Shown: positions 7,740-11,746, counted from the first letter of the stretch. The stretch is DNA of 36,412 nt from a virus (IMGVR_UViG_2585427969_000016); one strand, 5' to 3'. Translations and numbers: made by a program. Notes: generated from the sequence alone by a model not told the origin.

Positions 7740-8017
7740 TCAAATAGTGTATTAAATGTACTAAAATGTATCTTTTTATATAAAAAACAAAGTGTTGAAT
7801 TAATTCTCGGCTTTTGTATTTTTTAGATCGTAAACCGATTAGTGTTACCAAGAGTATTCAGTTAATAGGGCTTTAATTTTTTGCTTCCCTGTTTTGGTGG
7901 TTATGTGGTACTGTGTTTTTATACAGTTTTTGAGGTTGCTGAGAAATAGAGAATGATAGAGTTATATGCGAGCCTTAGTTTAATTCGTTGTAATTAGGAT
8001 CGGGTATATCATTCGTG

Positions 8018-8128
8018 CTGTCAGTGGTCCTATACCACTAAGCAAAGCAATAGAATCCTACGAATTATTGTTTAAATAGTAACATTGGCAATTATAACGG
8101 CAGTATCTGTGTTTTGTCTGTCAGTGGT
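8018..8128. promoter_or_regulatory. Two copies of CTGTCAGTGGT exactly 100 bp apart in the AT-rich leader of the cargo operon; first copy sits in a hairpin AGTGGT-N5-ACCACT (8023..8039)
   Basis: Exact 11-bp direct repeat at 8018..8028 and 8118..8128 in a 500-bp non-coding region. Confidence 0.3.
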
Positions 8129-8240
8129 TACATCGAGAGTATGTGATTTGCATTACATAACTAGTTGATGTTCCTTAGTTGTAGATAGAAAGTATTCGAT
8201 TTATTATAAGAGTACAAAAATTTATGCTAAGGATACTAGA

Positions 8241-8432
8241 ATGGAGTGGATTACACATATCATCACTTTCTTTGTCGGACTGGGAGCGGGTTGGTCGATT
8301 CGTGTCGTGTTTTCATCTAGAAAGCAAATTGGTAATTCCAGCGTGAACTCAAACAATCATACAGTTACTCAAACTGGTAACAGTGTTACAAATGGAAGTA
8401 TTGTTGGCGGTAATCAGGATAGGTCACATTAA
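8241..8432 (+). CDS. Cargo gene 1: small membrane protein (N-terminal TM helix, Asn/Ser/Thr/Gly-rich tail)
   Basis: ATG with AAGGA Shine-Dalgarno; hydrophobic segment ITHIITFFVGLGAGWSIRVVF; low-GC DNA. Confidence 0.55.
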   Translation: MEWITHIITFFVGLGAGWSIRVVFSSRKQIGNSSVNSNNHTVTQTGNSVTNGSIVGGNQDRSH

Positions 8433-8443
8433 GAGGTGTTGGT

Positions 8444-9007
8444 GTGTCTATCGAACAGTCAGGAAATACCGTAACAAATGGCAACATAATTTCTGGTGAT
8501 CAGACTAATCATATATTCAATTATCCTGTTAAAGGAACTAACCGGGAGATACAGAAACTTTATGAGTGTTTGAAGAGAGGTGATATAGGGGAAGCGGTTC
8601 CGGGGTTTTGTGCTGAACTAGAGCATTATATGTCCCTTCAGCCTGATATTGATGTTCGGGGGTTAGACGCTAAATTACTCGAGAGTAATAGAAAAGATTT
8701 GTTGTTTTTAGCTAAGCAGATGAAGGAAAAAGCAACAAAAGCCATAATGCGTCGCCAGACGTCAAAAACTGCACAAAGAATATTTGTAATAATTTTAGAT
8801 CAAATTCATTTTGATTTTATAACGAAAGTAACACCACTTATAGAAGCGGATAGCTCCAGAGTGATTGTTGATGAGAAAATCGCTTCAATAATTGATGAAT
8901 TATATTCGTCTTTGGGAGAGAACTTGCTAGAGCTAACAGCAAAAGATCTCTTGGGATTACTATTTTTTCTGGGTGGCAATTGCCATATAAGGTGGGATAA
9001 ATGCTAA
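8444..9007 (+). CDS. Cargo gene 2: helical protein of unknown function (GTG start), possible effector/coupling component
   Basis: GTG start 5 nt after strong AAGAGGTG Shine-Dalgarno; N-terminus repeats the GN(S/T)VTNG motif of gene 1; stop overlaps the gene 3 start. Confidence 0.6.
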   Translation: MSIEQSGNTVTNGNIISGDQTNHIFNYPVKGTNREIQKLYECLKRGDIGEAVPGFCAELEHYMSLQPDIDVRGLDAKLLESNRKDLLFLAKQMKEKATKAIMRRQTSKTAQRIFVIILDQIHFDFITKVTPLIEADSSRVIVDEKIASIIDELYSSLGENLLELTAKDLLGLLFFLGGNCHIRWDKC

Positions 9008-9501
9008 TTTACCATCCAGCATATGATGCATATCATTGTTTATTCAGAATGATTGCTCTTATAGACCATGTAAATGAAATTGAGGTAGATAAGGCCAGGA
9101 TTTTGGACTTCTATCTGCTATTTCCTGCTTTGGTATCTGAAATTAGAATGCCTCATAATTATTCTTCAATGAAGAAAGAAGCGAAGAAGTATTCTAATAT
9201 ATATCGGGATCCTATTAATGTTAGATCTACATTCAGAGATATGTATGAAATTCAAATGGCAGCAATAAGATGTCTTGCAGCTACTGGGTTGGTTGAGATG
9301 GATTGTCTTGAGAAAAACATTATAAAGAGAACAGATAAGTCTGTTCCAGATGGCTTATTACTTTCTATTAATAATTTTATTAATACGAATAAAATTATTA
9401 ATACATTTATCATAGATACACTATCTAAATTCCATTTGGTTGGAAAAGATGGTTTAAAAGATAGAACGAAGTTAATGGAGTTTAGATATGACTATTCTTA
9501 A
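9001..9501 (+). CDS. Cargo gene 3: small helical protein, candidate middle component
   Basis: AGGTGG Shine-Dalgarno; 7-nt overlap with gene 2 and 14-nt overlap with gene 4 (translational coupling). Confidence 0.6.
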   Translation: MLIYHPAYDAYHCLFRMIALIDHVNEIEVDKARILDFYLLFPALVSEIRMPHNYSSMKKEAKKYSNIYRDPINVRSTFRDMYEIQMAAIRCLAATGLVEMDCLEKNIIKRTDKSVPDGLLLSINNFINTNKIINTFIIDTLSKFHLVGKDGLKDRTKLMEFRYDYS

Positions 9502-11425
9502 TCCATCTTTTTTTGTTAGTAAATTAAAAGTTTTCCAAGCTGGGCATGAAGCATTTAGCTGTGTTTTCCATAAAGGGGTAAATGTAATAAGGGGGCGAAA
9601 TAGCTCTGGCAAAACTACTGTTATGGATCTTTTAGCATTTTCACTTGGTGCTGAAAATATTAGCTTGAAACCAACAGCTCTTTTATGTTCATTTACCATG
9701 GTTGAAGTGCTTTTGAATAATAATCTTGCCTGTTTTAAGCGGGAGATAAGTTCAGAATCCATGCGGCCGTTGAGTATTTTTTGGGGCTCGATGGATAAAG
9801 CTCTTAACTCATCACCGAGTCAGTGGCAAACTTATCCTTTTAAGCGTTCAGAAAAATCACTGAGTTTTTCTCAGGTAATCCTAAATGCTTTGGATATGCC
9901 TCTAGCTCAAGGAGAGGGTGCTTCAATTTTAACAATGCATCAAATCCTACGTGTATTATATGCAGATCAGCCATCTCTTCATAGTCCTATATTTAGGAAC
10001 GATAATTTTGATAGAGCTCTAACACGAGAGACTATTGGTGATTATTTATGTGGTATATTTGATGACAAACTTTATAGCTCTTTGATTAGGCTTAAACAGG
10101 TTGATGCTGAACTTTCGACAAAAATTGTTGAGCTGAAAAGCATATTTAAAGTTCTTGGACGCTCTGGGCAATCGCAGCATGTAAGTTTTATTGACGATAA
10201 AATAAAAGAGCTAAGAGAGAAGAAAGAAAAGATCAATGGAGAGCTTATCTCTCTCAAAGAGAGTAATAACTCTTCTGTTAATGATAAAAATGCTGATAAA
10301 ACTAAAACTAACAACCTTCGAAAAAATTTAAATAAAGCGAAGGAAGAAGAAGTAAAAAATATTGACAGTATCCATATGTTAGAAATGGAGATAGCTGACT
10401 CTGAAATGTTCATTAATGAGTTAGAATCCAGATTGCGCTCTCTTAATGAATCAAGTATTGCCAGAGACTATTTTAGCAACGTTAAATTTCAATTTTGTCC
10501 CAGTTGTTTAAGTGAGTTGAATATTTCCTCTGAAAATGAGTGCTCATTATGTAAAAATCACGCGCCAGAGGGTAGTGATGCTCCTCAATTATTAAGGATG
10601 AAAAATGAGATTTCTATCCAATTAAAAGAATCCAGAGATCTTCTTGAGCATAATTATGTAAAACTGAGAGAGCTTAAGAGCCAATCTCCTGCTTTAAAGC
10701 AAAAAGTGCGAGATTTAATTCGTGAATATGAAGAAGTCTCTAAGGTTTGGGAAAATGCCTATGAAATAGAGTTTGAAACTCTTACTAAGGCTCTGGGACG
10801 TGTTGAAGAAGAAATTAAACAGGCTTGTGAATTACAAAAACTTAGTGATGTAATATCTGATTTGCAAAAAGATCGTGATAGTCTGCAGTCAGAGAAGGAG
10901 AGATTGTCCTCTTTAATTGAATCTTTGGAGAGTAAAGAGGAATATAGGAAGAAGGATATTTCTAAAACTATAGAAAACATTATGAAAAGACTTCTTAAAA
11001 AAGATCTTCCATTGCAGACTGAATTTATTGATCCTAGAAAAGTTAATTTTAGCTTTGCCGATAATACTGTTTATGTAAATGGGTCTAAGTATTTTTCAGA
11101 AAGTTCAGCAGTTGTATTAAGACATCTCTTTCATTTAGCATTGTTAACTGCAAGTATTGAAAAAAAATACATGAGATTACCTCGTTTCCTAATGCTTGAT
11201 GGAATTGACGATGGTGGAATGGAGAAAGAGCGCAGTCACAATCTGCAGAAAATAATAGTACAAGAAACTCAATCGTATCAATATGATTTTCAAATAATTT
11301 ATGCGACATCGGAGATTAATCCAGAATATGAAAATACCGATTTGATTGTTGGTCGATATTTTAATCCAGATGATAAATCATTAAAGATAAATTATACCGC
11401 TCTTGATAAAGATTTATTGAACTAA
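9488..11425 (+). CDS. Cargo gene 4: SMC/Rad50-like ABC ATPase with coiled-coil insert and CxxC..CxxC hook
   Basis: Walker A GRNSSGKTT near N-terminus; Walker B/D-loop FLMLDGIDDGG near C-terminus; about 300 aa of K/E/L-rich heptad-like sequence between them with CPSC..CSLC at residues 337-355. Confidence 0.8.
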   Translation: MTILNPSFFVSKLKVFQAGHEAFSCVFHKGVNVIRGRNSSGKTTVMDLLAFSLGAENISLKPTALLCSFTMVEVLLNNNLACFKREISSESMRPLSIFWGSMDKALNSSPSQWQTYPFKRSEKSLSFSQVILNALDMPLAQGEGASILTMHQILRVLYADQPSLHSPIFRNDNFDRALTRETIGDYLCGIFDDKLYSSLIRLKQVDAELSTKIVELKSIFKVLGRSGQSQHVSFIDDKIKELREKKEKINGELISLKESNNSSVNDKNADKTKTNNLRKNLNKAKEEEVKNIDSIHMLEMEIADSEMFINELESRLRSLNESSIARDYFSNVKFQFCPSCLSELNISSENECSLCKNHAPEGSDAPQLLRMKNEISIQLKESRDLLEHNYVKLRELKSQSPALKQKVRDLIREYEEVSKVWENAYEIEFETLTKALGRVEEEIKQACELQKLSDVISDLQKDRDSLQSEKERLSSLIESLESKEEYRKKDISKTIENIMKRLLKKDLPLQTEFIDPRKVNFSFADNTVYVNGSKYFSESSAVVLRHLFHLALLTASIEKKYMRLPRFLMLDGIDDGGMEKERSHNLQKIIVQETQSYQYDFQIIYATSEINPEYENTDLIVGRYFNPDDKSLKINYTALDKDLLN

Positions 11426-11429
11426 CAAC

Positions 11430-11459
11430 CAAAACCATGCATAACCATGCATGGTTTTG
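11430..11459. terminator. Perfect 13-bp stem / 4-nt loop hairpin (CAAAACCATGCAT-AACC-ATGCATGGTTTTG) directly after the cargo operon
   Basis: Inverted repeat read from sequence, 5 bp after the stop of cargo gene 4. Confidence 0.55.
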
Positions 11460-11558
11460 CATTTATATCAGCTTGTTTTTGAATCGGGGCAAGTCCAGGG
11501 GTGGTAAGCTGTTTGGAGAAAACTGCAACTGCATTAAAACCGCCCCGTGAAGCGGGCG

Positions 11559-11577
11559 GGCGAGGCGGGGAAAGCAC
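11559..11577. other. cos cohesive-end site (GGCGAGGCGGGGAAAGCAC)
   Basis: Matches the recalled 19-nt P2 cohesive end; located between the post-A variable region and Q as in P2. Confidence 0.7.
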
Positions 11578-11746
11578 TGCGCGCTGGCGGTGGTGCTGAT
11601 TTTATTTTTTCAGCGTCTGAGCGCGTCGTGACGGCGTTTAGATTGTGCGCCGGGGCGTTGGTGTGTTTGCGGGGTGTTTTGTGCGGTGGTGAGCGTGTGA
11701 GGGCGTGATGACAGGATGTAAAAAAGCCGCCCGCAGGCGGCAATGT

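What the first reader, a model, noticed from the sequence alone, without database searches (positions are those of the whole stretch)
10496..10552. Zinc-hook-like CxxC-X11-CxxC motif at the midpoint of the ABC ATPase coiled coil
Residues C337/C340 and C352/C355 (FCPSCLSELNISSENECSLCKNH) sit almost exactly halfway between the Walker A and Walker B motifs, within the charged heptad-like region. Rad50 and SbcC place a CxxC hook at the coiled-coil apex for zinc-mediated dimerisation or tethering. Here a single chain carries two CxxC pairs, which could form an intramolecular zinc knuckle at the apex rather than an intermolecular hook.
Basis: partly seen in the sequence, partly recalled or inferred. 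Interest (0 to 1): 0.55.

Follow-up and report, generated by a model that had tools for sequence, protein, structure and literature searches.

The report
Double-CxxC zinc module at Lamassu LmuB apex
The four cysteines are real, almost invariant, and sit at the tip of the coiled coil of LmuB, the SMC-like ATPase of a Lamassu anti-phage system carried by a P2-like prophage, but LmuB proteins with two CxxC copies have already been catalogued, so the feature is ordinary for this family.

Summary
C337/C340 and C352/C355 are encoded at 10496-10552 in a 645-aa ORF (9488-11425). The AlphaFold2 model places them in the 36-residue connector between the ascending and descending coiled-coil helices. The motif CPxC-X11-20-CxxC is present in 261 of 262 full-length homologs (28-100% identity). 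Its cysteines are as conserved as the Walker A lysine.

The protein is not an orphan ABC ATPase. It is LmuB of a short Lamassu / ABC-3C system: PADLOC LmuB 4.5e-47, and the best fold match is Salmonella LmuB 9hqu. LmuC (Pfam MC5) and a short LmuA (CTD9 only) lie upstream. The cassette is AT-rich cargo between gpA and Q of a P2-like E. coli prophage.

Published work (PMC12663957) already reports that short LmuB carries zero, one or two CxxC copies.

It rests on a variable-length spacer, weak zinc-ribbon profile matches and beta-bridges flanking each CxxC. It is not proven: model confidence at the apex is moderate and I could not measure Cys-Cys distances or model a dimer.

The most interesting thing in the locus lies outside the finding. 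A conserved small membrane ORF upstream of LmuA ends in a motif that co-evolves with the N-terminus of LmuA.

The parts
9488..11425 (+). lmuB: SMC-like/Rad50-like ABC ATPase of a short Lamassu (ABC-3C) system, 645 aa
   Evidence: PADLOC LmuB PDLC03862 4.5e-47. Pfam AAA_23. Foldseek best hit 9hqu_A, Salmonella LmuB, 3.1e-16. Profile A3 against PDB gives 9hqu_A at 4e-7. RefSeq name is 'AAA family ATPase'.
9593..9619 (+). Walker A, residues 36-44 (GRNSSGKTT)
   Evidence: Read from the sequence. N38, G41 and K42 are invariant in A3.
10064..10471 (+). Ascending coiled-coil arm, residues about 193-328, with breaks at 227-234 and 259-268
   Evidence: AlphaFold2 DSSP helices 193-226, 235-258 and 269-328.
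10472..10579 (+). Apex connector, residues 329-364, holding both CxxC pairs
   Evidence: Non-helical in both models. Isolated beta-bridges at 336, 343, 351 and 358.
10496..10507 (+). First knuckle, C337-P-S-C340 (family consensus F-x-F-CPxC-[LFY]-x-x-[LIV])
   Evidence: C337, P338 and C340 are 262/262.
10541..10552 (+). Second knuckle, C352-S-L-C355 (family consensus CxLC-K)
   Evidence: C352 262/262, L354 249/262, C355 261/262. In the HMM alignment, the single CPMCG of Salmonella LmuB aligns here (low-confidence region).
10580..11014 (+). Descending coiled-coil arm, residues about 365-509, with a break at 420-423
   Evidence: AlphaFold2 DSSP helices 365-419 and 424-509.
11186..11200 (+). Walker B, residues 567-571 (FLMLD), followed by G572 instead of a catalytic Glu
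   Evidence: D571 262/262. Position 572 is G in 148 and N in 89 of 262. An acidic residue is conserved at 574.
9001..9501 (+). lmuC: ABC-3C middle component 5, 166 aa. Overlaps lmuA by 7 nt and lmuB by 14 nt.
   Evidence: Pfam MC5 1.9e-52. Present upstream of lmuB in every related locus that extends far enough upstream.
8444..9007 (+). lmuA-like gene: 187 aa, CTD9 only, no enzymatic effector domain
   Evidence: Pfam CTD9 2.4e-29 over residues 73-184. All 114 homologs found are 125-223 aa, almost all 172-202.
8456..8503 (+). N-terminal motif of LmuA, Q5-Q20 (QSGNTVTNGNIISGDQ)
   Evidence: Shared with the tail of the upstream ORF.
8241..8432 (+). Small membrane ORF, 63 aa: hydrophobic helix W3-F24, basic linker, C-terminal motif Q44-Q59 (QTGNSVTNGSIVGGNQ, 8370-8417)
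   Evidence: Found at this position in every related locus that has a short LmuA: phmmer hits in L001-L018, L021 and L022, and found by hand in L019, L020, L028-L030, L032 and L034. RefSeq name is 'hypothetical protein'.

Best explanation
The motif is the apex ('hook') module of LmuB, the DNA-sensing SMC-like ATPase of a four-gene short Lamassu system carried as cargo by a P2-like prophage.

In this LmuB clade the Rad50-type half-site (one CxxC per chain, zinc shared between two chains) is replaced by a full set of four cysteines in one chain. These most likely fold as a small C4 zinc ribbon that binds one zinc within the chain and caps the coiled-coil hairpin.

On this reading the zinc does not bridge the LmuB dimer. 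The dimer is held by coiled-coil contacts, as in the hook-less Vibrio LmuB. The zinc-stabilised knob gives the apex a rigid shape where LmuC (MC5) and the LmuA C-terminal domain (CTD9) dock and hold the effector side inactive until LmuB engages DNA ends.

Shown here: identity as LmuB, apex position, near-invariance of the four Cys plus Pro338, and constant association with MC5 and CTD9.

Inferred: zinc binding, intramolecular coordination and the docking role.
For: Family assignment.

Apex position.

Conservation equal to catalytic residues.

The spacer between the pairs varies in length (11, 12 or 13 in 250 of 261 sequences, up to 20) and in sequence. The distance from F308 to C337 is fixed at 29 in 259/262 sequences. 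That is the pattern of two zinc knuckles joined by an exposed loop.

The fragment model with the deeper alignment has no residue below pLDDT 50 and shows beta-bridges at C337-1/C340+3 and C352-1/C355+3.

Sub-threshold Pfam matches favour double zinc ribbons (DZR 24/59, DZR_2 21/59) over Rad50_zn_hook (2/59).

The apex profile aligns both CxxC pairs to the two knuckles of the RpoM zinc ribbon 7oqy_Y (E 0.096, not significant).

A coiled coil joined to a solved intramolecular CxxC-X22-CxxC zinc ribbon exists in MSMEG_4306 (top PDB sequence hit of profile A1, E 0.0015; PMC5947703).

Vibrio LmuB has no hook yet forms the LmuA1B2C1 complex, so a bridging zinc is dispensable in short Lamassu (PMC12663957).

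In Salmonella LmuACB, LmuC and the LmuA C-terminal domain contact the hook-proximal coiled coil (bioRxiv 10.1101/2025.03.14.643221).

MC5 and CTD9 accompany the four-Cys LmuB in all 28 related loci that extend far enough upstream to be checked, including six loci where LmuB is only about 28-32% identical.
Against: Apex confidence is low to moderate: pLDDT 39-55 in the full-length model and 61-74 in the fragment model.

I could not obtain coordinates, so clustering of the four Cys is not verified.

No zinc-ribbon Pfam model reaches its gathering score.

The fold search with the apex fragment gave nothing significant. Prefoldin and the Rad50 hook 1l8d tie at E about 0.9.

A monomer prediction cannot tell an intramolecular ribbon from a domain-swapped one.

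The first knuckle, CPSCLSEL, looks like a classical Rad50 hook (from my memory of the CPxC consensus), so an intermolecular role for it is not excluded.

In Salmonella LmuB the single-CxxC hook is needed for defence.
Confidence: 0.5

Rival explanations
1. Intermolecular double hook. The two CxxC pairs of one LmuB pair with those of the second LmuB, like with like or swapped, so two zinc ions bridge the dimer at the apex and give a stronger or geometry-locked Rad50-type hook.
For: LmuB descends from the CxxC-hook SMC lineage (PMC12663957). Solved LmuB dimers place their hooks side by side, and the Salmonella hook is required for defence. The whole apex profile aligns over its full length with Rad50 hook fragments 6zff and 1l8d (E 0.14-0.34, not significant). 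1l8d is rank 2 in the fragment fold search.
Against: The variable spacer length (11-20) is easier to reconcile with a loop inside one small domain than with two fixed inter-chain sites. Weak profile matches favour intramolecular ribbons. Short Lamassu can dimerise with no hook at all.
Confidence: 0.3
2. The four-Cys module is mainly a nucleic-acid-binding or partner-binding zinc finger that takes part in sensing, for example by touching DNA or a phage protein, rather than a structural cap.
For: Zinc ribbons often bind nucleic acids. One homolog is named 'predicted nucleic acid-binding Zn-ribbon protein' by JGI (P0071). K356 after the second knuckle is common (169/262).
Against: In the solved Lamassu-DNA complexes DNA is bound at the heads by LmuB and LmuC (PMC12663957). 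The loop between the knuckles is acidic and not conserved.
Confidence: 0.1
3. The cysteines do not bind zinc. They form a redox switch through disulfides, or a rubredoxin-like iron site.
For: Four Cys in two CxxC pairs is also the rubredoxin and thioredoxin-like pattern. Two family members weakly match a rubredoxin-like model.
Against: The protein is cytoplasmic and belongs to a lineage with a documented zinc hook. No redox partner is encoded in the operon.
Confidence: 0.05

Closest known systems
Short Lamassu LmuB with two CxxC copies (Haudiquet et al., PNAS 2025, PMC12663957)
   Same: Same protein family, same apex position, same count. That paper states that short LmuB encodes zero, one or two CxxC copies and that this suggests divergent dimerisation strategies. 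Its 'Clade O', whose LmuA seemingly lost the effector domain, fits the CTD9-only LmuA seen here.
   Different: The text I could read gives no structure or experiment for a two-copy LmuB. It does not say whether the site is intra- or intermolecular. It does not contain the words 'membrane' or 'transmembrane'. I could not confirm that this locus belongs to Clade O because the supplement is not held.
Salmonella enterica LmuACB (PDB 9hqu, 9hqx; bioRxiv 10.1101/2025.03.14.643221)
   Same: Best structural match (E 3.1e-16) and best PDB sequence-profile match (4e-7). It has a similar length (660 aa), and its coiled-coil folding point at aa 266-276 and 416-432 is close to the helix breaks at 259-268 and 420-423 here. 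Its hook is required for defence, and LmuC and the LmuA C-terminal domain sit next to the hook.
   Different: About 15% identity. It has one CxxC (CPMCG), a PD-(D/E)xK nuclease LmuA, and a Pfam family (DUF3732) that the window protein does not match.
Rad50 / SbcC zinc hook (for example PDB 1l8d)
   Same: ABC ATPase head, antiparallel coiled coil, and a CPxC at the apex.
   Different: Rad50 has one CxxC per chain and shares the zinc between two chains. It works with the Mre11/SbcD nuclease, which is absent here. Its arms are much longer.
MSMEG_4306 / HP0958 / CT398 (zf-RING_7, PDB 5y05 and 5y06; PMC5947703)
   Same: A long antiparallel coiled coil joined to a C4 zinc ribbon with two CxxC knuckles binding one zinc within the chain. 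It is the top PDB sequence hit of profile A1 (E 0.0015).
   Different: That ribbon follows the coiled coil at the C-terminus rather than sitting at its apex. Its spacer is 22 residues and includes a helix. It has no ATPase. The similarity is borderline and may be compositional.

Membership tests
Lamassu LmuB / ABC-3C ABC ATPase | Matches LmuB profile models | tested here: met
   PADLOC PDLC03862 4.5e-47 over residues 6-573, and ten further LmuB models.
Lamassu LmuB / ABC-3C ABC ATPase | Split ABC head (Walker A at the N-terminus; signature motif and Walker B at the C-terminus) with a coiled-coil insertion of about 300 residues | tested here: met
   Walker A at 36-44, signature-region S539, Walker B D571. 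Helical arms at 193-328 and 365-509.
Lamassu LmuB / ABC-3C ABC ATPase | Fold similarity to solved LmuB | tested here: met
   Foldseek hits 9hqu_A 3.1e-16, 9hqx_B, 9uxh_F, 9nyg_B and 9ux7_A rank above Rad50, SMC and JetC.
Lamassu LmuB / ABC-3C ABC ATPase | Operon with LmuC (middle component) and LmuA (protein with an ABC-3C C-terminal domain) | tested here: met
   MC5 1.9e-52 and CTD9 2.4e-29 in overlapping upstream genes. Conserved in related loci.
Lamassu LmuB / ABC-3C ABC ATPase | Short-Lamassu Walker B hhhhD[Q/S/T/E] (PMC12663957) | tested here: not met
   In this family D571 is followed by G (148) or N (89) of 262 sequences. This is a further variant, like the published ones in lacking the canonical Glu.
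Lamassu LmuB / ABC-3C ABC ATPase | Confers anti-phage or anti-plasmid defence | not testable with these tools
   Context only: AT-rich cargo (33-37% GC against 52-59% in the flanks) in the variable gpA-Q region of a P2-like prophage.
Rad50/SbcC-type zinc hook | CxxC at the coiled-coil apex | tested here: met
Rad50/SbcC-type zinc hook | One CxxC per chain, so that zinc must be completed by a second chain | tested here: not met
   Two CxxC per chain in 261/262 homologs.
Rad50/SbcC-type zinc hook | Matches Pfam Rad50_zn_hook | tested here: not met
   Not matched by the window sequence. Only 2 of 59 family members match, below threshold (best E 0.0025).
Rad50/SbcC-type zinc hook | Zinc-mediated dimerisation | not testable with these tools
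   Needs a dimer model with metal, or biochemistry.
C4 zinc ribbon (two knuckles, one zinc, one chain) | Two CxxC knuckles separated by a loop or hairpin of about 10-25 residues | tested here: met
   Spacer 11-20, variable in sequence.
C4 zinc ribbon (two knuckles, one zinc, one chain) | Each knuckle sits in a beta-hairpin turn and the four Cys cluster | tested here: inconclusive
   Beta-bridges flank each CxxC in the fragment model, at pLDDT 61-74.
C4 zinc ribbon (two knuckles, one zinc, one chain) | Significant match to a curated zinc-ribbon model | tested here: not met
   DZR E 0.014 (16 bits against a cut-off of 27.3) for the window sequence. 24 of 59 members match below threshold.

The most novel reading that the evidence does not exclude
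This LmuB clade has turned the ancestral open, shared-zinc hook into a closed, self-contained zinc ribbon. The apex is then no longer a dimerisation device but a docking knob for MC5 and CTD9.

The clade also belongs to a Lamassu subtype whose killing part is not a domain of LmuA. Instead it is a separate ~60-aa membrane protein, recruited through a short G/N/Q/D-rich motif that it shares with the LmuA N-terminus. That gene-pair logic matches the amyloid-signalling pairs known from fungal and actinobacterial NLRs.
Probability: 0.25. Interest if true: 0.65.

Novelty: already known. Interest (0 to 1): 0.3.

Why it matters
For the motif itself the stakes are modest. If it is a closed zinc ribbon, it would show that the Rad50-type hook can be converted from an inter-chain bridge into an intra-chain structural cap. 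That would help explain why short Lamassu tolerates zero, one or two CxxC copies. It would also mean hook mutants in this clade should be read as folding or docking mutants, not dimerisation mutants.

The locus as a whole matters more. It is a compact, widespread Lamassu subtype with no recognisable enzymatic effector, and a conserved small membrane protein with a co-evolving motif gives a testable candidate for how it kills.

Tried and rejected
- Single-sequence phmmer against PDB sequences gave no hit. Only the broad profile A3 reached Salmonella LmuB.
- The fold search with the 101-residue apex model gave nothing significant. Generic helical hairpins, prefoldin and the Rad50 hook all scored E about 1, so it cannot separate a hook from a ribbon.
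- Pfam scans of the apex gave only sub-threshold zinc-ribbon and RING matches.
- I looked for model coordinates to measure Cys-Cys distances. None are exposed to the script environment.
- Krishnan et al. 2020, the ABC-3C classification, is not held. The supplement of PMC12663957 is not held either. I therefore could not confirm clade membership or check whether the membrane ORF was noted there.
- I considered that the 63-aa ORF and the 187-aa ORF are one gene split by a frameshift. I rejected this because the two-gene layout, each gene with its own copy of the motif, holds across the loci with a short LmuA, and all LmuA homologs are short.
- I considered that the two motif copies are kept alike by DNA-level gene conversion. 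I rejected this because 63% of identical residues use different codons and there is no DNA repeat.

Full report
**Observation.** The window holds a 645-aa ORF at 9488-11425 on the + strand.
- The protein has nine cysteines. Scattering nine cysteines at random over 645 positions gives two CxxC pairs 5-25 residues apart in 0.024% of 200,000 trials.
- The coordinates, the residues and the non-random nature of the motif are therefore confirmed.

**What the protein is.** It is LmuB, the SMC-like ABC ATPase of a Lamassu (ABC-3C) defence system.
- PADLOC's LmuB models match it end to end; the best is 4.5e-47.
- Pfam sees only the generic AAA_23/SMC_N head.
- The AlphaFold2 model's best matches among solved structures are the Lamassu LmuB chains 9hqu, 9hqx, 9uxh, 9nyg and 9ux7, with a best E-value of 3.1e-16. 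Rad50, SMC, JetC and MukB rank below them.
- A profile of 145 family members finds Salmonella LmuB (9hqu_A) as the best PDB sequence match at 4e-7.
- The two upstream genes overlap their neighbours. They are Pfam MC5 (LmuC; 9001-9501, 1.9e-52) and a 187-aa protein that is only an ABC-3C C-terminal domain 9 (LmuA-like; 8444-9007, 2.4e-29).
- RefSeq annotates the identical locus in 19 of 5,426 complete E. coli genomes as 'ABC-three component system' proteins plus an 'AAA family ATPase'.
- The cassette is 33-37% GC between flanks of 52-59%.
- It sits between the replication gene A and the portal and terminase genes of a P2-like prophage. P2-like phage genomes match the flanks at about 97% identity, but none carries this cargo. 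This is a variable cargo site.

**Conservation.**
- The motif is present in 120 of 120 close homologs.
- It is present in 147 of the 148 representatives of 50%-identity clusters that cover the region, down to 28% identity.
- In a joint alignment of 262 full-length sequences, C337, P338, C340 and C352 are invariant, C355 is 261/262 and L354 is 249/262.
- In the 145-sequence alignment only 18 columns are invariant. Four of them are these residues; the others include Walker A, the Q-loop glutamine, the signature serine and the Walker B aspartate.
- The spacer between the two pairs is 11, 12 or 13 residues in 250 of 261 sequences and reaches 20. It has no conserved sequence. The distance from the conserved F308 to C337 is fixed at 29 in 259 of 262 sequences.

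**Position in the fold.**
- The full-length model (mean pLDDT 78.5) has helices at 193-226, 235-258 and 269-328. A non-helical stretch follows at 329-364, then helices at 365-419 and 424-509.
- The motif is therefore at the apex of the antiparallel coiled coil. The coiled coil's midpoint, residue 351, falls inside the motif.
- Apex confidence is low in that model (39-55).
- A second model covered residues 298-398 and used a deeper, more diverse alignment. It gave pLDDT 61-74 at the apex, with no residue below 50. It shows isolated beta-bridges at residues 336, 343, 351 and 358, one residue before and three after each CxxC. That is what two zinc knuckles look like.
- I could not get coordinates, so I could not check that the four sulfurs meet.

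**What is already known.**
- Haudiquet and colleagues (PMC12663957) surveyed 3,829 Lamassu systems. They state that long LmuB always has one CxxC, while short LmuB has zero, one or two, and that short LmuB may therefore use divergent dimerisation strategies. The feature as such is catalogued.
- The Vibrio LmuB they solved has no hook and still forms LmuA1B2C1.
- The Gruber-lab preprint (10.1101/2025.03.14.643221) shows that the hook of Salmonella LmuB is needed for defence. It also shows that LmuC and the LmuA C-terminal domain pack against the hook-proximal coiled coil.
- The Bacillus LmuB has a canonical single CQYC.
- In the texts I could read, no two-CxxC LmuB has been solved or mutated.

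**Mechanism.** I put about 0.9 on a zinc-binding Cys4 site at the LmuB apex.

For that reading:
- The spacer varies in length and is unconserved.
- The connector is symmetric: 8 residues, CxxC, 11 residues, CxxC, 9 residues.
- Hydrophobic positions around the knuckles are conserved (F334, F336, L341, L344, L354).
- The beta-bridges flank each CxxC.
- Weak profile matches prefer double zinc ribbons (24 and 21 of 59 members) to the Rad50 hook model (2 of 59).
- MSMEG_4306 is a precedent for a coiled coil joined to an intramolecular CxxC-X22-CxxC ribbon.

Against it:
- None of these matches is significant.
- The apex fold search is uninformative.
- A monomer model cannot exclude a swapped or doubled intermolecular hook, to which I give about 0.3.
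- Both models predict one zinc per chain, so metal content alone will not decide.

The likely role of the module is structural. It would provide a rigid apex where MC5 and CTD9 dock. I infer this from the Salmonella structure and from the unbroken association of four-Cys LmuB with MC5 and CTD9 in all 28 related loci that extend far enough upstream to be checked.

One detail cuts across a simple story. The HMM alignment places the single CPMCG of Salmonella LmuB on the second knuckle, not the first. The first knuckle, CPSCLSEL, is the one that resembles the Rad50 consensus. Which knuckle is ancestral is therefore unclear.

**Outside the finding.** The LmuA here has no effector domain, and this is the stable state of the family. 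All 114 homologs found are 125-223 aa, almost all 172-202.
- A 63-aa ORF lies directly upstream at 8241-8432. It has an N-terminal hydrophobic helix, a basic linker and a C-terminal G/N/Q/D-rich motif.
- An ORF of this kind is present at that position in every related locus that has a short LmuA, including loci whose LmuB is about 28-32% identical.
- The N-terminus of LmuA carries the same motif.
- The two copies match each other within a locus better than across loci. The summed own-locus score is 1023, against 733 +/- 42 for shuffled pairings, and 0 of 20,000 shuffles reach it. The own partner is the best match in 9 of 20 loci.
- This is not DNA homogenisation. 109 of 173 identical residues use different codons, and no DNA repeat is detected.
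- One distant locus instead has a 410-aa LmuA with an N-terminal domain carrying a lipase-like GxSxG (SYSLGG) fused to CTD9. That LmuA shows no such motif at its N-terminus. I did not scan that locus for a small membrane ORF.
- The layout is a membrane protein with the motif at its C-terminus, next to a sensor-side protein with the motif at its N-terminus. The same logic is described for amyloid-signalling gene pairs of fungal and actinobacterial NLRs (10.1101/2020.01.06.895854).
- No held paper mentions both Lamassu and amyloid signalling. PMC12663957 never uses the word 'membrane'.
- A plausible reading follows. Released LmuA oligomerises through CTD9, clusters its N-terminal motifs and recruits or templates the small membrane protein, which then damages the membrane. 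This is inference only.

**Verdict.** The feature belongs to a known family in which the two-CxxC state is already recorded, so I score the finding itself low to moderate. The membrane ORF and motif pair deserve their own follow-up.

Noticed in passing
window 8241-8432 (ORF), 8370-8417 (tail motif), 8456-8503 (LmuA head motif): A conserved 63-aa membrane ORF upstream of the effector-less LmuA ends in a G/N/Q/D-rich motif that is repeated at the LmuA N-terminus. The two copies co-evolve within loci (own-locus score 1023 against 733 +/- 42 for shuffled pairings, 0 of 20,000 shuffles reach it). They differ at synonymous sites (63% of identical residues use different codons). This is a candidate detached effector, coupled by a shared motif in the manner of amyloid-signalling gene pairs.
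   Followed up: partly
window 11186-11209 (LmuB residues 567-574): In this family the Walker B aspartate D571 is followed by G or N (237 of 262 sequences), not by Glu and not by the Q/S/T/E reported for short Lamassu. An acidic residue is conserved three positions later, at 574.
   Followed up: partly
window about 7800-11600: The four-gene cassette is 33-37% GC, against 52-59% in the flanking P2-like genes gpA, Q and P. P2-like phage genomes match the flanks at about 97% but none carries this cargo, so it sits in a variable cargo site.
   Followed up: partly
window 9001-9007 and 9488-9501: lmuA and lmuC overlap by 7 nt, and lmuC and lmuB overlap by 14 nt. This suggests translational coupling of the three core genes.
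   Followed up: no
L027 3279-4511 (metagenome contig, LmuB 28% identical): A distant four-Cys LmuB with MC5 is paired with a 410-aa LmuA. Its N-terminal domain carries a lipase-like GxSxG (SYSLGG) and is fused to CTD9, and that LmuA has no shared motif at its N-terminus. This is consistent with the small ORF replacing a fused effector elsewhere. I did not scan this locus for a small membrane ORF.
   Followed up: partly
window 10262-10291 and 10745-10756 (LmuB residues 259-268 and 420-423): The helix breaks in the modelled coiled coil fall close to the 'folding point 1' reported for Salmonella LmuB (aa 266-276 and 416-432). This suggests the same elbow.
   Followed up: no
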